NCBI GenBank assembly: GCA_964483375.1
Contig: CAZABJ010000014.1
Location: 1-48,501 of the forward strand
From: an uncultured Caulobacterales bacterium
Lineage (GTDB): Bacteria > Pseudomonadota > Alphaproteobacteria > Caulobacterales > Maricaulaceae
DNA: 48,501 bases
Direction of reading: 5' to 3'
In this document: positions 2,631-24,267 of the stretch, in pieces
How the letters are laid out: each line of letters starts with the position of its first letter
Numbering within the stretch: position 1 is the first letter of the stretch
Notes under the pieces: generated by a model
The model's input: only the letters and a program-made list of their open reading frames with translations
What the model was told of the DNA's origin: nothing
The model's database searches: none
Position numbers and translations under genes: made by a program

Positions 2631-3083
2631 GTGAGCGAGGCCCTGGAACACGGCTATTATTTGGAAGATCTCGCCGTCGGGATGTCCGCGGAGAAAGTCC
2701 ATCTGGTCACCGAAGCCGACGTGGAGACGTTCGCTCAGCTCACCGGAGACACCAATCCCATCCACATGGACGAAGCCTTCGCCGCCAACACCATGTTCAA
2801 AACGCGCATCGCCCATGGCGCGTTCATCGCGAGCTTGTGCTCGGCGGTGATGGGGACCCAACTTCCCGGACCCGGCGCTATCTTCCGGACCTTGAACCTG
2901 AACTATCGCGGCCCGGTGCGGATCGGCGAGGAGGTGACCGCGCGCGTCGAAGTGACCGATGTGGATGATGCCCGCCAAATGGTGAAGTTGGCGATCACCT
3001 GCATCGTGCGCGGCCGCAAAGTCGTGCGCGGGGACGCCGGCGCTTGGGTGGCTCGGCGCTCAGATGTGGAGAACGCTGCGTGA
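2631..3083 (+). CDS. MaoC-like (R)-specific enoyl-CoA hydratase / hot-dog fold dehydratase
   Basis: GTG start at 2631 with the strong SD 'gagggagggg'. Hot-dog motifs 'TGDTNPIHMDEAFA' and 'IAHGAF' are present. 150 aa. Confidence 0.8.
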   Translation: MSEALEHGYYLEDLAVGMSAEKVHLVTEADVETFAQLTGDTNPIHMDEAFAANTMFKTRIAHGAFIASLCSAVMGTQLPGPGAIFRTLNLNYRGPVRIGEEVTARVEVTDVDDARQMVKLAITCIVRGRKVVRGDAGAWVARRSDVENAA

Positions 3084-4009
3084 TCCTCGTTTCGGGGCTC
3101 GACCAGGTTCCGGCCGAGGCCCGCGGCGCGGCGATCGCGCTAGGCAATTTCGACGGCCTGCACAAGGGGCATGAGGCGGTGCTCGCCGCCGCCCGCGACG
3201 CCGGGGCGCCGCTAGGGGCGCCATTGGCGGCGGCGACGTTCAGCCCGCACCCCCGCCGGTTCTTTCAACCCGACGCGCCGCCCTTTCGGCTCATGAGCGA
3301 CGAGACGCGCGCCCGCGCGCTTGAGGCGCGTGGCGTGCGCATACTTTTTGCGCTGCCCTTCGATGCGGCGATGCGCGAACGCACCGCTGACGCGTTCGTC
3401 GCACACGTCTTGGCGGAGCGTTTGGGCGCACGCGCCGTGGCGGCGGGCTTCGATTTTCGGTTCGGGCGCGATCGAACAGGCGACGCCGAGGCGTTGTCCC
3501 GGCTCGGCGCGGCGGCCGGCTTGACCGTGCGCATCGCAGATGCGGTGGATGAAGACGGCGCGAAATGCTCGTCCTCCGCCATCCGCGCCGCGCTCGCCGC
3601 CGGCGACCCTGAGGGCGCAGCCCGGATGCTCGGGCGGCCTTGGACGATTGAGGGGGCGGTGGAGGAGGGCGATCGCCGGGGTCGCCAGCTTGGTTTCCCG
3701 ACCGCCAACGTTCCCCTTGGCGATCTCGTGCGGCCGCGCTTCGGGGTTTACGCCGTGGAGGCGCGGATTGAAGGCGATCCGGTGTGGCGGCCGGGCGTCG
3801 CCAATATCGGCGTGCGTCCGACCTTTGATGGGGAAGCCCCACGGGCTGAAGCGCATCTTTTCGACTTCGCCGGGGATATCTACGGCCGCCGGTTGGAAAT
3901 CGCGCTTCGCGCGTTTTTAAGGCCGGAGCGGCGCTTTGACGGGCTCGACGCGCTTAAGGCCCAAATCACCGCGGACTTGGAGGCCGCGCGGGCCGCCCTG
4001 GTCGGATAG
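3080..4009 (+). CDS. ribF: Bifunctional riboflavin kinase / FMN adenylyltransferase
   Basis: 'GNFDGLHKGH' lies 22 aa from the proposed GTG start at 3080, the same spacing as E. coli RibF. The GTG overlaps the MaoC stop as GTGA. The C-terminal riboflavin-kinase region 'GFPTANV...GVYAV' is present. The ORF-track start at 3044 is a TTG inside the upstream gene. Confidence 0.88.
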   Translation: MILVSGLDQVPAEARGAAIALGNFDGLHKGHEAVLAAARDAGAPLGAPLAAATFSPHPRRFFQPDAPPFRLMSDETRARALEARGVRILFALPFDAAMRERTADAFVAHVLAERLGARAVAAGFDFRFGRDRTGDAEALSRLGAAAGLTVRIADAVDEDGAKCSSSAIRAALAAGDPEGAARMLGRPWTIEGAVEEGDRRGRQLGFPTANVPLGDLVRPRFGVYAVEARIEGDPVWRPGVANIGVRPTFDGEAPRAEAHLFDFAGDIYGRRLEIALRAFLRPERRFDGLDALKAQITADLEAARAALVG

Positions 4010-4114
4010 CCGCCGCAGTTTCTCCCGAAACAACTGAGATTGCATTGGGACACGCTTGCGTTCGCGCCGCTAGTCTCCGCCAAAGGGGGACCGCGTTTTG
4101 GCAGGGGGGGCGAG

Positions 4115-6127
4115 ATGCGACGCAAGCGGACGGATTGGCCCAATGGTCAAATGGCCGTGGGCGTCACCGGGCATCGAACCAACAATCCGACGCTCGTTCA
4201 AAACGAAGCGCGCGTAGCCGCCGTCATCGCAACGCTCCTGGAAACCGTCGAAGAGGCCGCACGCTCGCGCGGGGCGGCGTATTTCGCTGGCGAAGACGAC
4301 ACGATGGGCTTCCGTCTGCTGACAATGCTCGCGGACGGCGCGGACACGATCGCAGAGCAGCAAGCCCGGACGCGCGGATGGGAGATATGCGCGCCCACGC
4401 CGTTCGGGCGAGCGTTGACGGCGGCGATGTTGGCCGTGGACGCCGCCGATATTGGTGACATCGACGCCTTGCTGCAGCTGGACGCCCATCCGCCGGCTGA
4501 CGACGCGCCGCCGGCGTTCCACAAAGCCGCCGCTATGCTCGCGCGGACCCGCGACGCGCGCGTGATCGCGTTGGCCGAGCGCGACGATGAGTTCATTGCG
4601 CGCTGGAAGTCCGCGCGGGCGGCGAAAGACGCCCATCCCGAGGCGTGGACCCGGTTCGTCGACGTGTGCTCGCAACGCTATGCGCTCGGCGCACGGCTTG
4701 TCGTCGAACACGCCGACTTGTTGATCGCGGTTTGGGATGGGGAGAGCCGCGCGACGGTCGGCGGGGCGGGCCGCACGCTTGAGGTCGCGCTGAATGACGG
4801 CGTGCCCGTGATTTGGGTCAATCCCGCCCAGCCTGAAAACTGGCGGATTTTAAGAACGCGCGCAGACTTGGCCCAAGCGCGCGCCGACGACCCTGGCGAC
4901 GCAAACTTGGACGTGGTCTCAGCCTTGGTGGGATCGCTGATCGCGCCCGGTGACCCTGACCGGCCCGAAGATGTCAAGGCGTCGCGCGGGCTGGCCGCTT
5001 TTCGCCGGGTTCGCCATCGTATGTTCGGTTCGCTGGTTTGGAGCGGTTATCGGTTGTTGGAGTGGGGGTTCGGCGGCGCGCCGGACGGGGCGCGCACGGC
5101 GTTGCTGCCGCGCTTCGCAACGCCGGAAACCTATGGCGAGACTGAGCTAGGAGGCGTCTACGGCAAAGCGCGCGATCTGCTCGAGGACGACCCAGACTTT
5201 GTCGACAAGCTCCAAAGGGTCACCTCGCGCCGCTTTGCGCTGGCCGACGGCAGCGCCACGCGCCTGTCTGACGCCTATCGCGGCGGCATGGTGCTCAGCT
5301 TCGCGCTGGCATGGATCGCGGTGGTGGGCGGCGCCCTCGGGGCGGAGTCGGCCGACGCGGGGATGGCGTGGCCCTGGTTCGCCGCGCAATTCGCCACCAT
5401 CAGCGCCATTCTCGTGCTTACGCTGACGGGACGCGCGGTGTTTCGTTGGCATAGGCGATGGCTGGAGACGCGTCGGGTGGCGGAGTATCTGCGCCACAGC
5501 CACATCTTGGCGCTTTTGGGCGTGATGCGGCCGTTGGGACGATGGCCCGGCGCCGTGGGGGATCTGTGGCCGGAGTGGTACGCGCGGCAGACATTGCGTG
5601 AGATAGGGCCGCCGCGCGCGACAATCTCAGCAGACTATATTCGCGGCGTGTTCGAAGACGTGGTGCTCGACCATGTGGTGGGCCAAAGGGACTATCACGA
5701 CGCCAAGGCGCGCCGGCTGCAGTCCGTGGACCGTGCGCTGGAACGATTTGCAACGCTGGTTTTCGCCTTTGTTTTCGTGGTTGTCGGCGCGTATCTCGCG
5801 ACGACCTTTCTGGAGTTGGGCTTCTCGCTGGACGCGCGCCATATCGGCGTGTTGGGCGTGGTCACCCCGATGCTCGCCGCCACCATCGCCAGCATTCGCT
5901 TTTTCTGCGACTTCGAGCGCTTCGCCGACATTTCCGTCGCCGCGGCGGCCCGGTTCCGGAATATCGAGCGCGACATCACCGCCATGTTGGAGACCGAAGG
6001 CGCGCGGTTCGACTACGAAACCGCTTCCGCGATTTTGCATCGCATCGATGGGGCGACGGTTTCCGAACTCGAGAGTTGGCAAGCCATTTTCGGGACCAAA
6101 GGCATGATGACGCCGACTTACATGTGA
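4115..6127 (+). CDS. Membrane protein: N-terminal SLOG-like (LOG/DprA-type Rossmann) domain fused to two tandem 2-TM SLATT-like modules
   Basis: ATG at 4115 is preceded by 'gggggggcgag'. The N-terminal region has Gly-rich loops 'VGVTGHR', 'MLADGADTIAEQ' and 'LLIAVWDGESRATVGGAGRTLEVALNDGVPVIWVNP'. The C-terminal 300 aa carry two pairs of hydrophobic helices ('MVLSFALAWIAVVGGALGA' / 'WPWFAAQFATISAILVLTLTG' and 'FATLVFAFVFVVVGAYLATTF' / 'IGVLGVVTPMLAATIASIRFF'), each followed by a basic amphipathic helix. The CDS is confident; the domain assignment is inferred from motifs only. Confidence 0.55.
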   Translation: MRRKRTDWPNGQMAVGVTGHRTNNPTLVQNEARVAAVIATLLETVEEAARSRGAAYFAGEDDTMGFRLLTMLADGADTIAEQQARTRGWEICAPTPFGRALTAAMLAVDAADIGDIDALLQLDAHPPADDAPPAFHKAAAMLARTRDARVIALAERDDEFIARWKSARAAKDAHPEAWTRFVDVCSQRYALGARLVVEHADLLIAVWDGESRATVGGAGRTLEVALNDGVPVIWVNPAQPENWRILRTRADLAQARADDPGDANLDVVSALVGSLIAPGDPDRPEDVKASRGLAAFRRVRHRMFGSLVWSGYRLLEWGFGGAPDGARTALLPRFATPETYGETELGGVYGKARDLLEDDPDFVDKLQRVTSRRFALADGSATRLSDAYRGGMVLSFALAWIAVVGGALGAESADAGMAWPWFAAQFATISAILVLTLTGRAVFRWHRRWLETRRVAEYLRHSHILALLGVMRPLGRWPGAVGDLWPEWYARQTLREIGPPRATISADYIRGVFEDVVLDHVVGQRDYHDAKARRLQSVDRALERFATLVFAFVFVVVGAYLATTFLELGFSLDARHIGVLGVVTPMLAATIASIRFFCDFERFADISVAAAARFRNIERDITAMLETEGARFDYETASAILHRIDGATVSELESWQAIFGTKGMMTPTYM

Positions 6128-6149: not shown

Positions 6150-9100
6150 CTAGTAGTCCCTTCGCCAGCGCAACGACACCGACGCGCCGGAGGTTCCGCC
6201 AAGGCGAGAGGCGAGTTCCAATTGCGGTCGCAGCCGCCATTGGATCTCCGCCGAAGTCCCCGCCACGGCGCTGCTTTCCACTTCGAGATAGACGTCATCG
6301 CCGATATAGCGGCCGCCCGTGACCACGGGACCGGTTTCTTCTCCCGAACGCACTCCCAACCGGTCGACGCCGAGGCTGCGTCGCAGCGCGCCGAGAATGT
6401 CCACGCCGCCGCCGCCCGCTAGCCCGGCGAGCGCGTTGGCGAGCTGGGCCGCCTCCAAGGCGCTCAGTTCTGACACGGACCGCCCGAACAGCAACCGAGA
6501 CAGGATTTCGTCCTGAGGATAGGCCGGTTGGCTTTCCCACGTGATCGCAGGGTCCGACGCGGCGCCGGAAATGCGGATGATCGCGGTGAGATCGGCGCGC
6601 TCTCGGCGTGCGGTGAGGTCGATGCGGGTCTCATCCAACGGCCCCACCAGCTCGATGCGCGCTTCGTCAAACACGAACCGCTCGCCGAGGGCCTCCAGCG
6701 CGCCGCGGATCAACCTGACTTCCCCGACGACAGAGGGGTCGGCGGCCGATCCGGTCGCTCTAGCGTCCACGGCCCATTCCGTCTCCAAGCCCGAGGCGCG
6801 GAAAAACACCCGGCGATCCGCGCGCACTGCGAGGTCAAGCGACAGGTCGAGCGGCGGCCCGACAGGCGGAGGCGGGGCGAGGTCGTCGGGTCTGTTTACG
6901 GGGACGATTTCCAAGACCACCACGCCGGGCGGGCCGAGTTCGGGCGGCGCCAGGTCGGCTTCGTCGATGCGCAGTTCCCCCGAAACCTCAACGCCAGCCT
7001 CAACGAGACCGATGCGAACCTCGCCGCTGCCGATGGCGCGCGCATCCGCCCGGTCGACCAGCAAGAGCCTGTCGAGGACGAGCTCGAGCGCGCCCGCGCC
7101 CGCGGCGATGTCATACCCGCCGGTCACGCTGAGCGCGCCGCCGTCTGGATCTGTTGCGCTGAGCCGGTCCAGGCTCAGACGGCCGCCGTCGAATGCGGCT
7201 GCGGCGTCAATGTCGCGAAGAGCGAGCCCGGTTGCGGCGTCGCGGACGGCGCCGTCCGACAACTGACCGCTTCCGGTCACCGCCGGAGACGCCATGGTTC
7301 CGCTCAAAGCGGCTTGAAGCGTCACCTGGCCCGCCGCCTCGATATCGCCGAACGCAAGAAGCGCAACCGCTTCGCCCAGCGCGCCTTGGATGTCGAGGAC
7401 GCCGGACAGCGCGCCAGCATCGTTGATGCGGATCGCAGGCGGCCAGGCCGCCAAAGAAACCGGCGCCGACAACGTCCCGCGCATCTCAAACCCGCCGGTT
7501 TGCGCGCGGGTCTCCGCGTCAAGAGCGTCCCCGAGCCTCATCAGCACGGATGCTGAGGCTGGTTCCGCTTGGCTCTCCGCTGCGGTCACCCCGGACAAGG
7601 CGAGTTCCGCTTCGCCCTCAAGCCGGTCAACGCCGGAGAGGGCGATCGCGCCGTCCGCCAAGCCGTCCATCGGTCCCGAAAAACCCATTGCGGACAACGC
7701 GCGCAGCGGCGCTTGTGCGAGTTGAGCCTCAAAACGCGTGGCCTCCGCGCGTGCGAACTCAATGCGAAGCGCGCCGCCTAACGACGTGGTCAGGCTCGCC
7801 GAACCCGCCAGCCCGTCGGGCGCGAAGGTGAAGCGCCAGGGGTCTTCTGCGGACAGGGCGAGTTCGCCGATGTCGGCGAGCGGGGAGAGTGTCGCAACGA
7901 TCTCGCCGTTCTCGCTGCGGCGAATGGCGCCGGCCGCCGCGAGGCTGGCCGGTTGCGGCAGCGTCGCCTCCGCCTCGAGGCGCACCGACAGCGCCTCAAG
8001 GTCGCCGAACAGCCGCAGCGTCGCAGCGGAAAGAAGGGCGTTTTCGCTGAGCCGTCGTTCGCCGAGCGTCACAACGGCTTCCACCACTTGGCCGCCGTCG
8101 GCTGCTCCCAGCGTGAGGCGGGCCTCGGCGTTTTCCTGCGGCGCGGCGAGGCGCAAGTCGCCGCGGGCGAGGGTGTCGGACCCTAAGGAGAGCGCCCCCG
8201 AGGCGCTCACGCCCAGGGCTTGTCCGCGGATCGCTTCGAAAGAAAGCGCGTCGGGCGCGAGGGCGAGCCTCCCCTCGAGGAAGACCGTCTCGCCTTCGAA
8301 CTCTGCGTCGAAGCGCAGCGGGCCGGCGAAAGCCCCCTCGGTCTCGGCGAGCGCCATTCGGACGCTGGGGGACGCCAACCCCGCATCGCCGGCGGCGATC
8401 CGGTCAGCGGCCGCCTCCAAGCGCAACGCGGGAGATCCCAGAACGCCGCGCGCCTCACCGCGCAGCGCCAAAGCGCCATCCAGCGCGATGGCGCCGCCCA
8501 GACCGCCAGGCGCGATCGCGAGATCGAATGTTGCGAGGTCGTCTTCGTCCGGGCCCAATACGCCTTCAGCCGTCCCGATGAAGCCTGCGCCTTCGGCGGT
8601 GACCTCCGCTAACCTAATCGCGCCCCCATGCAGCTGCGCTGAGACCGTGAACGCGGGTTCGGGGCCGAGTAAAGCGTCAAGCTCGGCTTGGGCGAGACTG
8701 AGGCCCGCCGCACCGCCCGTCGCTGACACGACCAAGGGGCGGCCTAGTCCGGCCCGGTCAGCCGACAGGGTGGCCTGCGCCGTCCCCGCCGCGCCTTCCA
8801 TCATCGTTGCAAGCGCGGTCAGCGCGAGGTCGACGCGGAGGGAGACCGCGCCGTCGCCGGTGAGGCGTCCGGCGCCGGCCGCCTCGCCGAACGCGCCGCG
8901 CAACGCCGCGCGGTCCAGGGCGATGTCACCGCTTTCGATGACATACCCCGCCGCGACAGAGAGCTCCGGCCGTTCGCCGAGGGCGCGCGCGAGAGGCGAG
9001 CCTGTGTCTGAGACGAGGGCGGAAATCGTTGCGGCCAAGTCGAGCGCGCCGTCGTCATGGGTGAGCGAAATCGGTCCGGATGCGGACGCTATGCTGACTG

Positions 9101-10256
9101 CGTCCAGGGCGATGTCCTCAAGCGCGATTTCACCTTCAAAGTCGACGATGCGGCCGATGCGCAACGCGCCTTCAAGACGGCCGGGCCCGACTGCGTCGCT
9201 CCATTCCTCCCCGATGAGCCGCCCGATTGCGGGGGCGGCGACGCGCACGGCCAACGCGTCGCGCGGTCGGAATGCGTCGGGATGAAATCCGCCGCTCGCT
9301 TCTGCGGACAGGTTCGCGGCGTCAAGGAAGACCGCGCCGACGCGCCTCCCGCTGCGGGGCGGCCCGAGCTCCGCGGCGACACGCAACTCCTCGCCCAACC
9401 GGTCCGCCAATGCGGCGAGCGGCGGGATGTCGCCCAACCGCAAAACCGCCTCGGCGGACCAAACCACGTCATCCATTGCGGCTGTGGCTTCCAGCACCGG
9501 CGCGCCGTCGATCGCGGCGGTCAGCGTCCCCCGTCCCGACCCAGCCGCGAAAGCCGCCTCGCCGTCCGCCGTGACGCCTGAGCCGGGCATGCCGAGCAGT
9601 GCGGAAAGCGCGCCCCCGCTTTCAGCGATGAGGGAGATGCGGGCTGACGCCGCGGCGTCCTCCAAGCGGCCCTCGAACCGGAACGCATCCCCCACACTGT
9701 CGGTGCGCAGCAGCTCGATGCGCGCTGCGGCTGCGCGCGCGGTGAGGCGGCCCTCCCCAGACAGGCTGAACCGCGCTGCTTCGCCGAACACGCCTTCCCC
9801 CAACGCGATGTCAGGCAGCGAAAGCCTTTCCAACTCGAGCCGCCAACCGCCCAGGCTAAGGCCGCCGCCCGTGTCCTCCTGGGGCGGCGCCGGCGGGAGG
9901 CGAGCGAGCGCGATCGTCTCGGCGGCGACCCGCTCGACGGCCAGGGTGCGGCTGAACAGGCTAAGCGGTCGCCAGTGCAAGGCAGCGTCCTGCAATTCAA
10001 GCCAAACCCCTTCCTCGTCCCTAACCGCGATGCGGCGAACCCTGAGCTCGCCCAAAAGGCTCCCGCTCAGCGCCTCCACCTCCAACGCGCCATATGCGCC
10101 CAAGGCGAGGCCGTCGAGGCGGCGTTCAACCATGTCGCGGGCGAGGGGAGAGGCTAAAAACGCCAAGGCCGCGACAAGGACGAGCAGAAGCGCGGCCGCG
10201 GCCCAGAGGCCGACGCGAAGCGCCATTTTCAGTGGGGCGCGCGGCGATGGGGACAC
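6150..10256 (-). CDS. tamB: Translocation and assembly module subunit TamB
   Basis: About 1370-aa protein with an N-terminal signal anchor 'MALRVGLWAAAALLLVLVAALAFLA' and a long Ala/Gly/Leu-rich beta-rich body. It sits immediately downstream of the Omp85-family gene, and its start region overlaps the tamA stop. Likely start is the GTG at 10256 (SD 'gaggcg') or the ATG at 10226; the ORF-track TTG at 10274 overlaps the tamA stop codon. Confidence 0.75.
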   Translation of the reverse strand: MSPSPRAPLKMALRVGLWAAAALLLVLVAALAFLASPLARDMVERRLDGLALGAYGALEVEALSGSLLGELRVRRIAVRDEEGVWLELQDAALHWRPLSLFSRTLAVERVAAETIALARLPPAPPQEDTGGGLSLGGWRLELERLSLPDIALGEGVFGEAARFSLSGEGRLTARAAAARIELLRTDSVGDAFRFEGRLEDAAASARISLIAESGGALSALLGMPGSGVTADGEAAFAAGSGRGTLTAAIDGAPVLEATAAMDDVVWSAEAVLRLGDIPPLAALADRLGEELRVAAELGPPRSGRRVGAVFLDAANLSAEASGGFHPDAFRPRDALAVRVAAPAIGRLIGEEWSDAVGPGRLEGALRIGRIVDFEGEIALEDIALDAVSIASASGPISLTHDDGALDLAATISALVSDTGSPLARALGERPELSVAAGYVIESGDIALDRAALRGAFGEAAGAGRLTGDGAVSLRVDLALTALATMMEGAAGTAQATLSADRAGLGRPLVVSATGGAAGLSLAQAELDALLGPEPAFTVSAQLHGGAIRLAEVTAEGAGFIGTAEGVLGPDEDDLATFDLAIAPGGLGGAIALDGALALRGEARGVLGSPALRLEAAADRIAAGDAGLASPSVRMALAETEGAFAGPLRFDAEFEGETVFLEGRLALAPDALSFEAIRGQALGVSASGALSLGSDTLARGDLRLAAPQENAEARLTLGAADGGQVVEAVVTLGERRLSENALLSAATLRLFGDLEALSVRLEAEATLPQPASLAAAGAIRRSENGEIVATLSPLADIGELALSAEDPWRFTFAPDGLAGSASLTTSLGGALRIEFARAEATRFEAQLAQAPLRALSAMGFSGPMDGLADGAIALSGVDRLEGEAELALSGVTAAESQAEPASASVLMRLGDALDAETRAQTGGFEMRGTLSAPVSLAAWPPAIRINDAGALSGVLDIQGALGEAVALLAFGDIEAAGQVTLQAALSGTMASPAVTGSGQLSDGAVRDAATGLALRDIDAAAAFDGGRLSLDRLSATDPDGGALSVTGGYDIAAGAGALELVLDRLLLVDRADARAIGSGEVRIGLVEAGVEVSGELRIDEADLAPPELGPPGVVVLEIVPVNRPDDLAPPPPVGPPLDLSLDLAVRADRRVFFRASGLETEWAVDARATGSAADPSVVGEVRLIRGALEALGERFVFDEARIELVGPLDETRIDLTARRERADLTAIIRISGAASDPAITWESQPAYPQDEILSRLLFGRSVSELSALEAAQLANALAGLAGGGGVDILGALRRSLGVDRLGVRSGEETGPVVTGGRYIGDDVYLEVESSAVAGTSAEIQWRLRPQLELASRLGGTSGASVSLRWRRDY

Positions 10257-10270
10257 GTGAGACGCCTCGT

Positions 10271-12016
10271 TCAAAACGATTGCCCGATGGAAAGATAAAT
10301 CTGCACGCGCGGATCCCCGTCAAACGGATCAAGCGGCGCGGCGATGTCGGCCCGCAGCGGACCAAAGTCGGTGAAGTACCGAACTCCCACGCCGGCGCCC
10401 CACCGCACGTCCCCCAGGTCGGGGGTTTCGCCTTCGCTCGCAGCACCACCGTCGACAAATGCGACCCCGCCGAAGCGGTCGCTGAAACGGGCGCGCAACT
10501 CCAGCGCGGTTTCGACCAGCGAGGCGCCGCCCGCCAGCACGCCGTCAGCATCCCGTGGGCTGACGGCCTGAAAGGGATAACCCCGGATCGAGCCCCCGCC
10601 GCCGGCGAAAAACAAATCGTCAGCCGGCACGGCGTCGGTCGCGCTTGCGGTCAGCGAGGCCGCGCGCAGGCGGGCCGCCGCAACCAGGCGCTCAGAGCGG
10701 AGCGAGCGATACGCGCTGCCCTCAATATCGCTGATGAGATAAGCGATCGCATCATCGCCGACCCCGGTGATGGGACTCAGCGTGACGCGCGCGCGCAGTC
10801 CCTCGGTAGGGTTCAGCGGATCATCGGCGTTGTCGAAACTGACGCTCGCCGCGCCGCGAAACAGGGCCAGGCGTTGGGTCGTCAGCACATCGCGCGTTTC
10901 TTGGACAGTCACCCCAAGACCCAGAGCGGCGGAGACGCGTTCGGACAGGGGCTGGGACGCTTCGACCTGAAAGGAGGCGGCGAGACGGTCAAACGCGTCG
11001 GTGTCCTCCTGGAGAAGGCCCGCGCCGAAGCGGAGATCGCGCTGGGGCCGCCGCCAGGCGGGGATGGAGAGTTGGGCGAACAGCGCCCGTTCGAGGGTGA
11101 GCGCACGGGCCTCCACGCTCAACTCCTCAGCGCCGGCGAACGCGTTTCTGAGCGTCCATCGTCCTTCAAGCCCGCCCCCGTCCTCGGTGGCGAAGGAGCC
11201 GCCAAGCGTCAGGGTGCGCCGAGGCTCGTCCTCAAGCGTAACGCGCACGGGGCGAAGACCATCGGGGCCGGCGTCGCCCAATCCAACGGCGACGGAGGAA
11301 AACGCCTCGGTCTCCCGCAAGCGCGCGGCGTAGTCGCGCAAGAGCGCCGGGGAATAAACATCGCCCGCCTCATAGGGGGCCAAGCGCAGGAGGAGCCTGT
11401 CTCGCACGCGTGCGCCGCCGGACGCTTCAGGCGCTCCCAGACGCGCCAGGGCGCCGGTGTCGAACCGCAGCGTCACATCCATGATCGCCCGGTCATAATC
11501 GACCCTAAGGGTCCGCTCGCCCGCCGCGGCGTCGGGACGGCCCGCCGCCAGCAAGGCCGCGACGACGCGCGCCTGGGCGTCCAAAATGTCTTGGGACCGC
11601 GCCGGCGCCCCAGGCCTCAGACCGACGGCGGCCTGCGCCGCGGTCTCAGCGTTCTCTTCAAGCGTCTCGCTGAGGACGAGCGTGACCTCGCCGAACACGA
11701 ACCGCTCGCCGACCGAGACCTGCACGCGCGCGACCGGCGGCGCGCCGTCCTCAACAAACGGCTCCGCGCGGGCGGCGTAAAAGCCTTCCGAATGGAGGGC
11801 GAGCGTGACGTTTTGCGCCGCGCGTCTGGCGTTGCGGCGGGCGGCGAAACGAGAGGTCGGAGCCGGCGCGTCACTCTCGGCCGCTCGCCGTGCGACATCG
11901 AAGACGGGATCCTCTGGCAACCCCTCGACGATCGCCAACGGACCCTCGGCCCGAGCCGAGGGCGACAGCGCCGCTGACAGCGCTAAAACCAAGACGAGGC
12001 ATGCGAAACGGAACAT
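10271..12016 (-). CDS. tamA: Outer-membrane Omp85-family protein TamA
   Basis: ATG at 12016 gives the signal peptide 'MFRFACLVLVLALSAALSPSARA'. The protein has POTRA-like repeats and a C-terminal beta-barrel ending in the aromatic 'LSIGQSF'. About 581 aa, upstream of tamB. Confidence 0.85.
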   Translation of the reverse strand: MFRFACLVLVLALSAALSPSARAEGPLAIVEGLPEDPVFDVARRAAESDAPAPTSRFAARRNARRAAQNVTLALHSEGFYAARAEPFVEDGAPPVARVQVSVGERFVFGEVTLVLSETLEENAETAAQAAVGLRPGAPARSQDILDAQARVVAALLAAGRPDAAAGERTLRVDYDRAIMDVTLRFDTGALARLGAPEASGGARVRDRLLLRLAPYEAGDVYSPALLRDYAARLRETEAFSSVAVGLGDAGPDGLRPVRVTLEDEPRRTLTLGGSFATEDGGGLEGRWTLRNAFAGAEELSVEARALTLERALFAQLSIPAWRRPQRDLRFGAGLLQEDTDAFDRLAASFQVEASQPLSERVSAALGLGVTVQETRDVLTTQRLALFRGAASVSFDNADDPLNPTEGLRARVTLSPITGVGDDAIAYLISDIEGSAYRSLRSERLVAAARLRAASLTASATDAVPADDLFFAGGGGSIRGYPFQAVSPRDADGVLAGGASLVETALELRARFSDRFGGVAFVDGGAASEGETPDLGDVRWGAGVGVRYFTDFGPLRADIAAPLDPFDGDPRVQIYLSIGQSF

Positions 12017-16572: not shown

Positions 16573-17092
16573 GCCTTTCTTGACCCCGATGGCGCGCCGG
16601 GGGCTCGCGCTTTCCGCCGGCGTCGTCGTCGTGGATCAGATCACCAAGTGGATTGTGCTCGGCCCTCTGGCGCTTTCCCCCGAAGGCTGCCGATACAATC
16701 CGGTGCATTGCGGCAAAATCGAAATCTCGCCGATCTTCGATTTGACCATGCTGTGGAACCAAGGCGTGAGCTTCGGCCTTCTCCGGGCGGGCAGCGAAGC
16801 GGGGCGTTGGGCGCTCATCATCCTGTCTCTCGTCATCGCCTCAGTGATGTTCTCCTGGCTGCGGAAAATCGACCGGCCGCTCGCCGCCCTGGCGCTGGGC
16901 GCCGTCATCGGCGGCGCGATCGGCAATGTGATCGACCGGGTGCGGTTTGGCGCCGTGGTCGACTTCTTCGACTTTTCGGGGCTGTTCTTCCCTTGGATCT
17001 TCAATGTCGCCGACGCCGCCATCAGCGTCGGCGTCGCCGTGCTGTTGCTCGATTTGGTTTTGGAAAGCCGGGACCGCGCTCGGGCGGCGTGA
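16553..17092 (+). CDS. lspA: Lipoprotein signal peptidase II
   Basis: 'VVVDQITKW', 'NQGVSFGL' and '[11 protein letters not shown]...FNVAD' are present. The gene overlaps the ileS 3' end. The start is either the ATG at 16553 or the ATG at 16589. Confidence 0.9.
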
Positions 17093-17179
17093 AACCCGCG
17101 CCGTTCGGGCGCCGCTAGGTCTTGGCGGGCCGGCTCAGGGTCCGGTACAACCCACAGGCTTGATATGGAGAGGCTCCTC

Positions 17180-17740
17180 ATGCGCCTGCGCACTTCCCGT
17201 CTCGTGGTCGCCGCCGCGACCATCGCCGCCCTTGGCGTCAGCGTCGCCTCATGTTCCAGCGTGCGTCGCGCGGTCGGCGCGGAGCGAGTTCGTCCCGACG
17301 AGTTCCGGATCGTGACCATGGCGCCGCTTGAGGTGCCGCCGGAGTATAATCTCCGCCCGCCGCGCCCCGGCGAACCGCGCCCGCAAGAATACGCCGCCAG
17401 CGATTCCGCCCGCGCGGCCCTCTATGGCGAAGGCGACGAGGCCGCCGGGGTGTCGCAGGGGCAGCGACTGCTGGTCGAGCGTAGCGGCGGAACGCTGGCT
17501 GACCCGAATATCCGCGCCGTCGTCGACGCTGAGGCCGCCGGCATCATCCGCCGCCGACGCGGCTTCGCCAATCGCGTGATGTTCTGGACCGACGGCGACA
17601 CCGCAGACGAGGCCAACCCCTTGAACGCCGTCAGCGAAGCGGAACGCCTCGAGCGTGAAGAAGCCGCCCGTCGCGCCACCGGCGACGGCGATGTGGTCAT
17701 CCGTCGCGCCGGCGGCGGGCTGAAGCTTCCGGGGCTGTAA
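17180..17740 (+). CDS. DUF3035-type lipoprotein
   Basis: ATG at 17180 with SD 'ggagagg'. Lipoprotein signal 'MRLRTSRLVVAAATIAALGVSVASC'. The position downstream of lspA matches the conserved alphaproteobacterial arrangement. Confidence 0.65.
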   Translation: MRLRTSRLVVAAATIAALGVSVASCSSVRRAVGAERVRPDEFRIVTMAPLEVPPEYNLRPPRPGEPRPQEYAASDSARAALYGEGDEAAGVSQGQRLLVERSGGTLADPNIRAVVDAEAAGIIRRRRGFANRVMFWTDGDTADEANPLNAVSEAERLEREEAARRATGDGDVVIRRAGGGLKLPGL

Positions 17741-20179: not shown

Positions 20180-21013
20180 CTAGCCGTAGCCGACGGCGGG
20201 CGGGGTCGCAAAGGGCCCCGCCTCCGCCATCCGCACTTCCTCATAAACGTAAGAGGCGATGGAAACGCCCACGGCGATCAAAGCGGCGAGGAATACTCGG
20301 CCGAACATGCGCTTCATGCGCAGCTTATGTCCCAGCGCCAAGCCCGCAGGCAGAAAGAAAATGACCAGCAGGGCTATCGCGCCGGCGACCCCGGCCGTGA
20401 CGCCTAAGGCGATGGCCTGATCTTCGGACATGGCCGGCGCCGAGCCGCCTTCGCCAAAGCCGAAAAACGCCGGCAGACACTGCCCCATCGCGCCCGGCTC
20501 GCCGAAATTGAAACACGGATCGACATTCGCCAGGCGCTCGCTCAAGTCATAAGCGCCGAGGCTCGCATAGCTGATGATGAGCACGACGACCAAAACCGAG
20601 AACACAAGCCCGCTCAACATGCGGCCGAACCAGCCCGGCGGAACCTCGAATTTCGAGAACCAGGGCTTGGAGGCGGCGGCGAAAATCGCCAGCGGGAAGA
20701 TGAAAATCAGATGCACGACGGCGAAGACGAACGCCCAGAACCCCACGCCGGGTTTCAGATTGAGCAGCGTGATCGCAAACAGCGAAAGCACATACATCGC
20801 CAGATAAATCAGCACCGCCAGCGGCGCCATGTCGATGTCGATGAACAAACTCACAAACACCGAAAGCCGCTCCACCACGAACGCCAGAGGTTCGCGGAAG
20901 GCCTCGGCCAGGACGCCCAAATCGATGGCTTGGTCGACCGCGCCGACCATCGCGCTCGCCAAGGCGAACACCGCATAGGCCGAAAGCCCTGCGAAAATCA
21001 TCGGTTTCGACAT
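20180..21013 (-). CDS. Polytopic inner-membrane protein of unknown function
   Basis: 277 aa with 7 or more hydrophobic helices and an SD 'gggggcgag'. It is co-oriented 136 nt downstream of the SPFH gene. Confidence 0.6.
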   Translation of the reverse strand: MSKPMIFAGLSAYAVFALASAMVGAVDQAIDLGVLAEAFREPLAFVVERLSVFVSLFIDIDMAPLAVLIYLAMYVLSLFAITLLNLKPGVGFWAFVFAVVHLIFIFPLAIFAAASKPWFSKFEVPPGWFGRMLSGLVFSVLVVVLIISYASLGAYDLSERLANVDPCFNFGEPGAMGQCLPAFFGFGEGGSAPAMSEDQAIALGVTAGVAGAIALLVIFFLPAGLALGHKLRMKRMFGRVFLAALIAVGVSIASYVYEEVRMAEAGPFATPPAVGYG

Positions 21014-23662: not shown

Positions 23663-24267
23663 GTTGCCTCCGCAGGGGCGGGTCTCGAGGGGTCGATCCA
23701 GCCGATGTGACCATCTGGACGGCGATACACCACATTCAACGCACCATGCGCGGCATTCTTGAAGATGAGTGCGGGGGCGTCGGTCAACCCCATTTCTTGG
23801 ACCGCCATACCCACGGTGAGAACCGGAAGTTCGCCGGCGGTCTCAGCGATGATCAGCGGATCGTCCTGCGCATCGGTTTCCTCGGCGACCGCATCTTCGC
23901 TCGCATCCGGCGCGGGCTGGGCGCTTTGAAGGACCACATAGGCTGCGGGTTCGGGCGCGGCGTTGCGGGGGCCGCGACGGTCGGTGAGGCGTGTTTTGTA
24001 GCGGCGCAGCCGTTTTTCGAGCCGAGCCGCGGCGTCATTCACCGCTGCATAGGCGTCGTCCGCTGAGCCGCTGGCGTGCAGATGCGCGCCGGACGGCAAA
24101 TGCAGGGCGCATTCCGCTTTAAAGAGATAGCCGTCTTTGGAGACGACGACGAACGCTTCGCCGACATCGCCGAAATATTTGGCTACCGTTTCTTCAATCC
24201 GTGCGGTGACGCGCTCGGACAAGGCGGCGCTCACGTCGATGCCTTTGTTGACGACTTGCACGTGCAT
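23659..24267 (-). CDS. hpf: Ribosome hibernation promoting factor (long form)
   Basis: N-terminal 'MHVQVVNKGIDVSAALSERV...' matches the YfiA/HPF fold. The C-terminal 'ALNVVYRRPDGHIGWIDP' dimerisation domain is present. Confidence 0.9.
   Translation of the reverse strand: MHVQVVNKGIDVSAALSERVTARIEETVAKYFGDVGEAFVVVSKDGYLFKAECALHLPSGAHLHASGSADDAYAAVNDAAARLEKRLRRYKTRLTDRRGPRNAAPEPAAYVVLQSAQPAPDASEDAVAEETDAQDDPLIIAETAGELPVLTVGMAVQEMGLTDAPALIFKNAAHGALNVVYRRPDGHIGWIDPSRPAPAEAT

What the first reader, a model, noticed from the sequence alone, without database searches (positions are those of the whole stretch)
4115..6127. Solitary SLOG-like sensor domain fused to two tandem 2-TM SLATT-like modules between ribF and tamB
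Seen in sequence: residues about 38-260 carry three Gly-rich loops in the order expected for the SLOG Rossmann fold (LOG/DprA/ThsA-SLOG, TRPM LSDAT). These are 'VGVTGHR', 'MLADGADTIAEQ' and 'LLIAVWDGESRATVGGAGRTLEVALNDGVPVIWVNP'. The C-terminal 300 aa contain two consecutive units, each of two hydrophobic helices plus a basic amphipathic helix: 'MVLSFALAWIAVVGGALGA' / 'WPWFAAQFATISAILVLTLTG' + 'RWHRRWLETRRVAEYLR', and 'FATLVFAFVFVVVGAYLATTF' / 'IGVLGVVTPMLAATIASIRFF'. Established knowledge: SLOG domains bind nucleotide-derived ligands (cytokinin riboside phosphate in LOG, gcADPR in Thoeris ThsA, ADPR in TRPM). SLATT 2-TM modules were defined by Burroughs and Aravind (2015) as predicted membrane-perturbing effectors that co-occur with SLOG or SMODS domains in conflict systems. 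Inference: this would be a single-polypeptide ligand-gated membrane effector of an abortive-infection type. No nucleotide-generating partner (CD-NTase/SMODS, TIR, SIR2) lies within 20 kb on either side, so the activating ligand and its source are unknown. The gene has host-like GC content and sits among core genes, which argues for an old or domesticated insertion rather than a fresh island.
Basis: partly seen in the sequence, partly recalled or inferred. Interest (0 to 1): 0.75.

Follow-up and report, generated by a model that had tools for sequence, protein, structure and literature searches.

The report
Orphan SLOG–double-SLATT membrane effector gene
This gene encodes a membrane protein with a nucleotide-sensor-type head and four membrane helices; its relatives usually sit beside a TIR signalling enzyme as in Thoeris-type phage defence, but this copy stands alone among housekeeping genes.

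Summary
Window 4115-6127 (+) is an intact 670-aa ORF between ribF and tamB.

- **C-terminal half.** It has four hydrophobic helices in a 2+2 layout. Both modules hit SLATT HMMs, below the curated cut-offs but in 40 of 42 family members. They also match SLATT-annotated viral proteins by fold.

- In 48 of 80 homologous loci from other genomes, a TIR_2-domain protein of one subfamily lies within 6 kb. It keeps the catalytic W-x-x-x-E motif and is fused to TPR, FGE-sulfatase or STAND regions. It is often directly upstream with a 4-nt overlap.
- The family is therefore most likely the effector of a Thoeris-like TIR signalling system. It has the "SLOG and 4TM" architecture that Yirmiya et al. (2025 preprint) listed as a putative, unvalidated Thoeris effector.
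- The window copy has no TIR anywhere in 48.5 kb.
- Such orphans are common, at least 25% of loci, and are under purifying selection (dN/dS about 0.1).

Verdict: a new member of a computationally predicted kind, with function untested. Moderate interest.

The parts
4115..6127 (+). Complete coding sequence of the SLOG-2xSLATT protein (670 aa from ATG 4115; stop included). An in-frame TTG at 4040 is a less likely start.
   Evidence: ORF list. Full-length homologues of 640-690 aa begin about 10 aa before the GVTGHR motif. An SD-like GGGGGGCGAG run lies just upstream of 4115. AF2 model: pLDDT 87.7, pTM 0.89.
4115..4900 (+). N-terminal cytoplasmic SLOG-type Rossmannoid domain (aa about 1-262). Conserved loops are TGHR (18-21), DGxD (74-77), E198/D201, WDG (207-209) and GxxGxT (216-221).
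4901..5185 (+). Helical linker region (aa about 263-357) between the sensor domain and the membrane modules. Confidence is lower here (pLDDT blocks of 60-86).
   Evidence: Secondary structure and per-block pLDDT of the model. R313 and E316 are invariant and Y312 and R314 nearly invariant.
5186..5524 (+). SLATT module 1 (aa about 358-470). A long helix runs into TM1 (389-412), then a short outer loop, TM2 (417-443), and the basic juxtamembrane helix RWHRRWLETRRVAEYLRH.
   Evidence: NCBIfam SLATT_1 at aa 381-463, E 2.7e-6, 27.4 bits against a cut-off of 41. Pfam DUF4231 at aa 386-462, 22 bits against 24.7. Hits in 40-41 of 42 members. Hydropathy. Helices 360-412, 418-443 and 445-460.
5525..5626 (+). 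Highly conserved cytoplasmic connector (aa about 471-504; GRWP...WPEWYAR...R..G.P) between the two SLATT modules.
   Evidence: A dense run of invariant residues: G469 R472 G475 W477 W485 P486 E487 R491 R495 G498 P500.
5627..6124 (+). SLATT module 2 (aa about 505-670). A long helix runs into TM3 (546-572), then TM4 (576-598), the conserved R(Y/F)FGDFERF segment (RFFCDFERF in the window), and two C-terminal helices.
   Evidence: NCBIfam SLATT_4 at aa 524-635, E 1.6e-4. A second SLATT_1 stretch falls on this module in homologues, for example P0042 517-662. Hydropathy. Helices 506-566, 574-598, 600-626 and 634-662.
3044..4009 (+). Upstream neighbour ribF (context only, not part of the system). It occupies the position that a TIR gene holds in many homologous loci.
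   Evidence: Pfam FAD_syn 152 bits and Flavokinase 141 bits. The same ribF-gene-tamB order is seen in a 99.8%-identical contig, L086.
6150..10274 (-). Downstream convergent neighbour tamB (context only).
   Evidence: Pfam TamB 164.6 bits.

Best explanation
**What the gene encodes.** The gene encodes an inner-membrane protein. Nearly all of its mass is cytoplasmic. It has an N-terminal SLOG-fold small-molecule sensor domain of the YpsA/DprA type, then a helical linker, then two SLATT-type two-helix membrane hairpins (four TM helices in all).

**Family-level role.** The protein is most likely the effector of a Thoeris-like TIR signalling system. A neighbouring TIR_2 protein carries a TPR, FGE-sulfatase or STAND sensor region. 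It is inferred to make an NAD+-derived nucleotide, a cADPR isomer or a related ADPR derivative, when triggered. The SLOG domain is inferred to bind that nucleotide. Binding is inferred to drive oligomerisation or opening of the SLATT helices, so that the membrane is permeabilised and the cell arrests or dies.

**The window copy.** It is an orphan effector with no TIR gene in the 48.5-kb contig. If it works this way, its signal comes from a gene elsewhere in the genome or from another source.

**Shown versus inferred.**
- Shown: the fold, the TM layout, the family-wide TIR linkage, conservation, and the orphan state of this copy.
- Inferred: ligand identity, pore formation and a defence role.
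For: - **SLATT.** SLATT_1, SLATT_3 and SLATT_4 hit 40, 39 and 19 of 42 members, and both modules are hit. DUF4231 hits 41 of 42. There are fold matches to SLATT-annotated viral proteins. Hydropathy shows 2+2 TM segments.
- **TIR linkage.**
  - Three homologues on long contigs have a TIR_2 gene directly upstream with a 4-nt overlap. The closest homologue, P0002, has the C-terminal FGE-sulfatase part of such a gene at its contig edge.
  - 48 of 80 GTDB loci have the same TIR subfamily within 6 kb, sometimes as 2-3 tandem paralogues.
  - All 10 sampled partners pass the Pfam TIR_2 gathering score. Their C-terminal regions are TPR or FGE-sulfatase. One further partner is TIR-STAND-TPR.
  - The TIR consensus keeps the W-V-R-A-E catalytic-Glu motif that the published ThsB domain sequences share.
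- **Variable genomic position.** The location differs between genomes, and no locus shares synteny with the window.
- **Published parallels.** 'SLOG and 4TM' effectors next to TIRs, and TIR + SLATT (type VII, signal cADPR), are described in bioRxiv 10.64898/2025.12.03.692087.
Against: - The window has no TIR, and every neighbour is housekeeping.
- 32 of 80 loci lack a TIR within the sequence held. About 20 of these have roughly full flanks.
- Two of four sampled sister-family members are also solitary.
- PADLOC gives no hit, and no family member is on IMG/VR viral contigs.
- All SLOG and SLATT HMM scores for the window protein are below the curated cut-offs.
- The only published tests of the 'SLOG and 4TM' architecture, two systems expressed in E. 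coli, showed no defence. Homology of those proteins to this family was not established.
- The TIR partners are large multidomain proteins, unlike typical short ThsB.
Confidence: 0.6

Rival explanations
1. A stand-alone physiological channel or membrane regulator. On this view the SLOG domain senses an endogenous nucleotide metabolite, such as ADPR, an NAD+ breakdown product or a modified nucleotide, and gates the membrane modules as part of normal stress physiology. The TIR linkage in other genomes would then be a secondary recruitment.
For: - The window copy has host-like composition and sits among core genes.
- At least 25% of family loci have no TIR within 6 kb on either side.
- TIR-less copies are under strong purifying selection, with dN/dS 0.07-0.12 in syntenic Novosphingobium and Hyphomonadaceae pairs.
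- Two sister-family loci are solitary.
- The family is absent from PADLOC and from viral contigs.
- There is weak fold resemblance to the ADPR-binding region of TRPM channels.
Against: - The genomic position varies between genera, with no shared synteny.
- The gene occurs in only about 450 loci among 185,579 species representatives, so it is accessory rather than core.
- It is tightly and repeatedly linked to one TIR subfamily, including translationally coupled operons.
- One sister-family member lies in a nucleotide-conflict-type neighbourhood with RyR/MoxR-AAA, CAP12-type TIR and NDT-like genes.
Confidence: 0.25
2. A membrane-anchored enzyme. On this view the SLOG domain is catalytically active, as a LOG-type phosphoribohydrolase or a nucleoside-2-deoxyribosyltransferase-type base-releasing enzyme, rather than a sensor. 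The TM region would only anchor it.
Against: - In the alignment to the deoxyribosyltransferase, the family has His-Thr (GGTGHT) where the enzyme has Ser-Glu. That this Glu is the enzyme's catalytic residue is from memory.
- The family lacks an invariant Glu after the GxxGxT loop, which the LOG PGGxGTxxE motif requires.
- The best structural relatives, YpsA and DprA, are non-enzymatic binders.
- About 300 highly conserved residues of SLATT modules and juxtamembrane segments are hard to explain as a simple anchor.
Confidence: 0.07
3. A decaying remnant. On this view the gene is the leftover effector of a lost TIR operon and no longer functions.
For: - No partner gene is present.
- The window protein departs from the family at a nearly invariant position: Cys598 in RFFCDFERF where at least 90% of members have Gly. 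It also has an atypical C-terminal tail.
- Its clade is rare. Only P0002 (49% identity), one near-identical protein (P0121) and one 35% metagenome hit were found.
Against: - The reading frame is intact and full length, and codon GC3 matches the neighbours.
- The model is confident.
- The protein shares every one of the 84 columns that are invariant across the 42-sequence alignment.
- Orphan copies in other lineages evolve under dN/dS of about 0.1.
- The comparison with L086 (4 synonymous changes, 1 non-synonymous) has too few changes to be informative.
Confidence: 0.05

Closest known systems
'SLOG and 4TM' putative Thoeris effector class (Yirmiya et al., bioRxiv 10.64898/2025.12.03.692087, Table S2; no type number assigned)
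   Same: The architecture label is the same, a SLOG sensor plus four TM helices. So is the context in most family loci, a gene next to a TIR-domain gene.
   Different: - Their TIR domains match this family's TIR profile only weakly, at 25 and 5 bits.
- The partner TIR motif was not found in the held part of Table S1.
- The published systems gave no defence in E. coli.
- Here the TIR partners carry TPR, FGE-sulfatase or STAND regions.
- The window copy has no TIR at all.
Type VII Thoeris (TIR + ThsH SLATT effector; signal canonical cADPR)
   Same: A TIR-linked SLATT-domain membrane effector, thought to oligomerise in the membrane on binding a TIR product.
   Different: The paper annotates ThsH with a SLATT domain only. 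Its predicted ligand pockets lie between SLATT protomers. The protein here has a separate SLOG sensor domain and two SLATT modules in one chain.
Type I Thoeris ThsA (SIR2-SLOG; binds 3'cADPR)
   Same: A SLOG domain acts as receptor for a TIR-made cyclic ADPR isomer, and a toxic output domain is fused to it.
   Different: In ThsA the output is a SIR2 NADase, not membrane helices. The domain order is also reversed: by my recollection, the SLOG domain is C-terminal in ThsA, whereas it is N-terminal here. PADLOC Thoeris models do not hit this protein.
SLOG-SLATT fusions predicted by Burroughs, Zhang, Schaffer, Iyer and Aravind (Nucleic Acids Res 2015)
   Same: The same concept: a SLOG ligand sensor fused to a SLATT 2-TM pore-forming effector in nucleotide-centred conflict systems. 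This is from my own knowledge, as the paper was not held. Its prediction is restated in PMC7159879.
   Different: I could not check whether this particular YpsA/DprA-like SLOG + tandem SLATT family was among their examples. The Pfam SLOG-clan models derived from that work hit the family only in a few members and below threshold (YAcAr in 5 of 42), and LSDAT_prok is not among the families listed.
YpsA (Bacillus subtilis, PDB 2nx2), a SLOG family protein
   Different: It shares only 14% identity. YpsA is a soluble single-domain protein of 178 aa. By my recollection it is linked to cell division. It has no membrane modules.
TRPM2-type channels (N-terminal LSDAT/MHR1-2 SLOG domain that binds ADPR and gates a cation channel)
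   Same: The logic is analogous: a SLOG-fold nucleotide-binding domain fused N-terminally to a membrane pore. TRPM2, TRPM5 and TRPM8 appear among the Foldseek hits.
   Different: The Foldseek probabilities are low (0.05-0.25), and the alignments have very high rmsd. The pore is a 6-TM channel unrelated to SLATT. Pfam LSDAT models are not among the hits.

Membership tests
SLOG superfamily (Smf/DprA-LOG Rossmannoid domains) | Three-layer alpha/beta Rossmannoid fold, superimposable on known SLOG structures | tested here: met
SLOG superfamily (Smf/DprA-LOG Rossmannoid domains) | Conserved Gly-rich loops after the first strand and after a later strand, which form the ligand/phosphate pocket | tested here: met
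   T18 G19 H20 R21 follow strand 12-19. W207 D208 and G216 G219 T221 follow strand 202-206. All are invariant in 42 sequences.
SLOG superfamily (Smf/DprA-LOG Rossmannoid domains) | A match to a curated SLOG-clan HMM at its gathering score | tested here: not met
   No Pfam or NCBIfam SLOG model hits the window protein. Across the family there are only sub-threshold hits: YAcAr in 5 of 42 (best E 0.0099) and Nuc_deoxyrib_tr in 7 of 42.
SLOG superfamily (Smf/DprA-LOG Rossmannoid domains) | Binding of a nucleotide-derived ligand | not testable with these tools
   This needs binding assays or a ligand-bound structure.
SLATT (SMODS and SLOG-associating 2-TM effector domain) | A two-TM helical hairpin with flanking cytoplasmic helices | tested here: met
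   Two hairpins, at 389-412/417-443 and 546-572/576-598. In the model each is entered by a long helix and followed by an amphipathic helix.
SLATT (SMODS and SLOG-associating 2-TM effector domain) | A match to SLATT HMMs at the curated cut-off | tested here: inconclusive
   In the window protein, SLATT_1 scores 27.4 bits against a cut-off of 41, SLATT_4 21.6 against 55, and DUF4231 22 against 24.7. The hits are nevertheless consistent across the family: SLATT_1 in 40 of 42 (best E 4e-11) with both modules matched, SLATT_3 in 39 of 42, SLATT_4 in 19 of 42, DUF4231 in 41 of 42. A direct profile comparison of module 1 with module 2 found no similarity.
SLATT (SMODS and SLOG-associating 2-TM effector domain) | Fold similarity to annotated SLATT proteins | tested here: met
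   BFVD Foldseek matches SLATT-annotated proteins of Klosneuvirus, Marseillevirus, Pyramimonas orientalis virus and Aureococcus virus, at prob 1.0 and E 0.07-0.15 over 164-182 columns. The PDB searches listed only generic helical proteins for this half.
SLATT (SMODS and SLOG-associating 2-TM effector domain) | Genomic association with a nucleotide-signal-generating enzyme (SMODS/CD-NTase, TIR and similar) | tested here: inconclusive
   Met for the family: a TIR lies within 6 kb in 48 of 80 loci. Not met for the window copy: no TIR in 48.5 kb.
Thoeris-type TIR signalling defence system | A TIR-domain gene with a catalytic Glu in the same operon or locus as the effector | tested here: not met
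   The window has none. Homologous loci do: TIR_2 at 72-80 bits against a cut-off of 28, a conserved W-V-R-A-E motif, and overlapping stop/start codons.
Thoeris-type TIR signalling defence system | An effector that combines a signal-binding domain with a toxic output domain | tested here: met
   A SLOG sensor plus SLATT membrane modules, by fold and HMM. Toxicity itself was not tested.
Thoeris-type TIR signalling defence system | Protection against phage and TIR-dependent signal production | not testable with these tools
   This needs experiments. The only published tests of the 'SLOG and 4TM' architecture were negative in E. coli.
Thoeris-type TIR signalling defence system | Location in defence islands, or recognition by defence-system HMM sets | tested here: not met
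   PADLOC gives no hit. All window neighbours are housekeeping genes. The family is absent from IMG/VR contigs.
LOG cytokinin-riboside phosphoribohydrolase enzymes | The catalytic PGGxGTxxE motif | tested here: not met
   The family has GG(T/A)G(H/R)T with no invariant Glu in the following residues, and no invariant Pro before it.
LSDAT (TRPM-type SLOG) family | A match to the LSDAT_prok or LSDAT_euk models, or close fold similarity to TRPM MHR1/2 | tested here: not met

The most novel reading that the evidence does not exclude
The orphan SLOG-2xSLATT proteins may not be defence effectors waiting for a TIR signal. They include the window copy, at least a quarter of the core family, and part of a wider group of more than 1,100 clusters at 50% identity. 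They could instead be a widespread class of bacterial nucleotide-gated membrane channels that sense an endogenous NAD+- or ADPR-derived metabolite. That would make them a prokaryotic functional counterpart of ADPR-gated TRPM2, from which TIR-linked immune versions were recruited (or the reverse).
Probability: 0.2. Interest if true: 0.75.

Novelty: new member of a known kind. Interest (0 to 1): 0.5.

Why it matters
Thoeris-type TIR signalling is now known to use many effectors. The SLOG + 4-TM class has been predicted but never shown to work. No ligand is known for it, and the PDB searches here gave only generic helical matches for the SLATT half.

This family offers a well-defined, confidently modelled and highly conserved example. 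It comes with natural TIR partners that carry recognisable sensor regions (TPR, FGE-sulfatase, STAND). It also has many partner-less copies that selection still maintains.

This gives two testable questions. Which TIR product gates a SLOG-SLATT pore? Can such effectors work without a linked signal generator? The second bears on how bacterial immune effectors relate to ordinary nucleotide-gated channels such as eukaryotic TRPM2.

For genome annotation, about 450 species-representative loci now labelled 'hypothetical' or 'DUF4231' could be named.

Tried and rejected
- **PADLOC** scan of the protein: no hit.
- **Profile search of PDB sequences:** only chance-level hits, namely an antibody light chain and a nucleoside 2-deoxyribosyltransferase at E 0.5.
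- **hhalign of SLATT module 1 against module 2:** no similarity. An internal duplication therefore cannot be shown from sequence.
- **Synteny test:** ribF, tamB, tamA, MaoC, CheZ and the HAD gene are not found next to any homologue. Only unrelated response regulators matched. This rejects 'syntenic core gene'.
- **Viral contigs (IMG/VR):** no family member.
- **Metagenome scan for close relatives of the window protein:** a single 35% hit. The point at which this clade lost its TIR could not be dated.
- **Link to the published 'SLOG and 4TM' systems:** the Nitrospira TIR domain found only 55-64%-identical TIRs. The one with a usable contig (L087) has no SLOG-SLATT gene next to it. The partner TIR motif is absent from the held part of Table S1, which is truncated.
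- **Burroughs et al. 2015:** could not be opened.
- **afdb50 fold library:** unavailable.
- **dN/dS between the window and L086:** uninformative, with only 5 differences.
- **Source organism:** not identified. The window protein carries no name or accession in the protein collection, and its genome is not among the GTDB representatives returned.
- **First tree script:** timed out. It was replaced by identity clustering.
Full report
**1. The observation**

Window 4115-6127 (+) is an intact ORF of 670 codons from the ATG. An in-frame TTG at 4040 would add 25 residues. The ATG is preceded by GGGGGGCGAG. Full-length homologues begin about ten residues before the GVTGHR motif, so 4115 is the likely start.

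Kyte-Doolittle hydropathy finds exactly four hydrophobic segments: aa 389-412, 417-443, 546-572 and 576-598. This is a 2+2 layout, and a strongly basic helix follows the second segment.

The neighbours are ribF (FAD_syn + Flavokinase) upstream and tamB/tamA, convergent, downstream. The rest of the sequence within 20 kb encodes CheY, CheZ, MaoC, PhyH, IleRS, MutL, a thioesterase, an SPFH protein, PtsN, RpoN, LptB and LptC. GC and GC3 match the surroundings. A contig 99.8% identical from another sequencing run has the same ribF-gene-tamB order.

**2. The two domain calls**

Sequence profiles alone are weak for this one protein.
- NCBIfam gives SLATT_1 at aa 381-463 (27.4 bits, cut-off 41) and SLATT_4 at aa 524-635 (21.6 bits, cut-off 55).
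- PADLOC gives nothing.

The signal becomes consistent across the family. Of 42 aligned homologues sharing 35-48% identity with the window protein, 41 hit DUF4231, 40 hit SLATT_1 (best E 4e-11), 39 hit SLATT_3 and 19 hit SLATT_4. SLATT_1 matches twice per protein, once in each module. SLATT_3 falls on module 1 and SLATT_4 on module 2.

- YgdH and YvdD.

These are families I know as SLOG members. Between them the list holds only generic helical-bundle hits to the C-terminal half. Foldseek against the PDB gives the same families.

Foldseek against predicted viral structures again finds YspA, DprA and DUF2493 SLOG proteins, with best E 2e-5. For the C-terminal half it finds several giant-virus proteins annotated as SLATT domains.

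I therefore accept both calls: an N-terminal SLOG-fold domain of the YpsA/DprA type, and two SLATT-type 2-TM modules. Two caveats apply. No curated HMM threshold is reached by the window protein. And a direct profile comparison of the two modules shows no similarity.

**3.

The protein belongs to a large family of uniformly 640-690-aa 'hypothetical' proteins.
- The first search returned 700 hits.
- About 450 loci were found among 185,579 species-representative genomes. They are mainly Sphingomonadales, Caulobacterales, Hyphomonadaceae and Micropepsaceae, with some Gammaproteobacteria.
- An exhaustive profile search found 1,121 clusters at 50% identity with E <= 1e-30. These include a sister group of similar length that matches from about profile position 180 onward.

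The first three homologues examined on long contigs each have a TIR_2-domain gene directly upstream, overlapping the start codon by 4 nt. One is TIR + FGE-sulfatase and two are TIR + TPR. The closest homologue, P0002 at 49% identity, has the FGE-sulfatase end of such a gene at its contig edge.

A profile built from these TIR domains finds the same subfamily within 6 kb in 48 of 80 genome loci. Its position varies: directly upstream, in tandem arrays of two or three, or downstream on either strand.
- Ten sampled partners all pass Pfam's TIR_2 threshold, at 72-80 bits against 28. Eight have C-terminal TPR regions and two have FGE-sulfatase.
- One further partner is TIR-STAND-TPR.
- The TIR consensus keeps the W-V-R-A-E motif. 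Its Glu aligns with the W-x-x-x-E seen in the published ThsB domain sequences.

None of the window's neighbours is found next to any homologue. The gene is therefore an accessory gene with variable location, not a syntenic core gene.

**4. The window copy is an orphan, and orphans are common**

No ORF of at least 60 codons in any frame of the 48.5-kb window matches the TIR profile, and tblastn with four partner proteins finds nothing better than E 0.2.

32 of the 80 loci also lack a TIR in the sequence held. About 20 of those have roughly full 6-kb flanks on both sides, so at least a quarter are true local orphans. They are scattered over the protein clustering. They include whole syntenic groups, such as four Novosphingobium loci between a HAD-acyltransferase gene and a PAPS-reductase gene.

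Orphans are not decaying. Pairwise dN/dS among TIR-less loci is 0.07-0.12 at dS 0.4-1.2.

The window protein shares every one of the 84 alignment columns that are invariant across the 42 sequences. It does carry Cys instead of the nearly invariant Gly in R(Y/F)FGDFERF, and it has an unusual C-terminal tail.

In the sister group, four sets of loci were sampled.
- Two are solitary.
- One lies beside an ACT-domain protein and a PAS/GAF protein.
- One lies in a conflict-type neighbourhood with a RyR/MoxR-like AAA protein, a giant TPR protein, a CAP12-type TIR protein and an NDT-like protein.

**5. Mechanism**

The following is shown:
- a cytoplasmic SLOG domain with invariant loop residues (TGHR, DGxD, WDG, GxxGxT);
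- a helical linker;
- two 2-TM hairpins with very short outer loops;
- extremely conserved basic and aromatic juxtamembrane segments (RWHxRWFETRRVAEYxRH, GRWP...WPEWYAR, RxFGDFERF);
- frequent operonic linkage to a TIR that looks catalytically competent.

The following is inferred. The TIR protein, triggered through its TPR, FGE-sulfatase or STAND region, converts NAD+ to a cyclic or linear ADPR derivative. The SLOG domain binds it, as the SLOG domain of ThsA binds 3'cADPR. The SLATT modules then oligomerise or open, which collapses membrane integrity.

This parallels two published systems. Type II Thoeris has an effector that binds His-ADPR through a Macro domain and forms a membrane pore. 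Type VII has a SLATT effector with cADPR as its signal.

For the window copy, the signal would have to come from elsewhere in the genome or from another source. I put 0.6 on the overall reading. The architecture itself is about 0.9. The TIR-effector role for this particular copy is nearer 0.4.

**6. Rivals**

- (a) A stand-alone nucleotide-gated channel that senses an endogenous metabolite: 0.25. The orphan statistics, purifying selection and core-gene setting favour it. The accessory distribution and tight TIR linkage count against it.
- (b) A membrane-anchored LOG-like or NDT-like enzyme: 0.07. The expected catalytic Glu is missing.
- (c) A decaying remnant: 0.05.

**7. Comparison with what is known**

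Burroughs et al. (2015) predicted SLOG sensors fused to SLATT pores. This is from my own knowledge, restated in PMC7159879.

Yirmiya et al. (bioRxiv, December 2025) list 'SLOG and 4TM' among putative Thoeris effectors found next to TIR genes. They tested two examples in E. coli, saw no defence, and assigned no type number. They also showed that type VII (TIR + SLATT) signals with canonical cADPR.

The present family fits that predicted class by architecture and context. Homology to the published examples could not be tested. The partner TIR subfamily is only distantly related to theirs.

The differences worth noting are:
- the YpsA/DprA-like rather than LSDAT-like SLOG domain;
- the tandem SLATT modules;
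- multidomain TIR partners rather than short ThsB proteins;
- the high frequency of conserved orphans.

**8. Verdict**

On novelty, this is a new member of a computationally predicted but experimentally unvalidated kind. Interest is moderate at 0.5. It is not surprising to a specialist in conflict systems, but it is a clean, testable entry point into an uncharacterised effector class. It also bears on the question of what partner-less effectors do.

Noticed in passing
L018 1786-5959; L038 2-5915; L029 and L064 2172-5956; L035 295-3929; L050 266-4051: Several homologous loci carry two or three tandem TIR_2-TPR paralogues upstream of a single SLOG-SLATT gene. This recalls the multi-TIR layout reported for type III Thoeris. 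It suggests that several sensors feed one effector.
   Followed up: partly
L001 6421-8004 (TIR + FGE-sulfatase partner): Between its TIR and FGE-sulfatase domains, this partner has a hydrophobic stretch (PLILGAAALAAAAFGAYVFM) that looks like a TM helix. The FGE-sulfatase/lectin-like domain may therefore face the periplasm. That would be unusual for a Thoeris-type TIR sensor.
   Followed up: no
L076 5233-8115; also L069 2852-5830 and L023 7794-8531: In three loci without the usual TIR partner, a gene for a large WD40-repeat protein (961 aa in L076) starts 4 nt after the SLOG-SLATT gene. About 430 N-terminal residues are unassigned, and the N-terminus gives a weak match to the partner TIR profile (E 1e-4). 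It may be a divergent TIR-WD40 partner.
   Followed up: partly
L083 7936-11966; also L009 3427-4749 and L067 4180-5970: Proteins with C-terminal trypsin-like peptidase domains and unassigned N-terminal halves lie directly next to the homologue in loci without a TIR. L083 has two in tandem.
   Followed up: partly
L091 1-11379 (sister-family member P0193): This neighbourhood combines a protein of more than 1,300 aa with TPR repeats, a RyR-domain protein with a MoxR-like AAA region, a CAP12/Pycsar-type TIR protein and an NDT-like protein around a sister-family SLOG-SLATT gene. It looks like a nucleotide-centred conflict island.
   Followed up: partly
L014 (contig labelled Candidatus Sulfopaludibacter, Acidobacteriota) versus L026 (Hyphomonadaceae MAG): The two SLOG-SLATT genes differ by only dS 0.43 and share a MaoC/mesaconyl-CoA hydratase-like neighbour. 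The 'Sulfopaludibacter' contig is therefore probably a mis-binned alphaproteobacterial contig, or else a very recent transfer.
   Followed up: no
window 16636-17319 (-), 20180-21013 (-), 23707-24066 (+): Three ORFs with coding-like GC3 (0.77-0.80) have no Pfam match at the thresholds used (1e-5 for 20180-21013, 1e-3 for the others). They also do not match the partner TIR profile.
   Followed up: partly
window 3044-3083: The longest ribF ORF (TTG at 3044) overlaps the end of the MaoC-like gene (2631-3083) by 40 nt. The near-identical contig L086 has ribF called 12 codons shorter (309 aa), so the true ribF start is probably near 3080.
   Followed up: no
window 5906-5908 (Cys598 of the protein): The window protein has Cys where at least 90% of the family has Gly, in the R(Y/F)FGDFERF juxtamembrane motif. 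It also ends ...GTKGMMTPTYM instead of the family's ...GGKHITVPV. The functional meaning is unknown.
   Followed up: no
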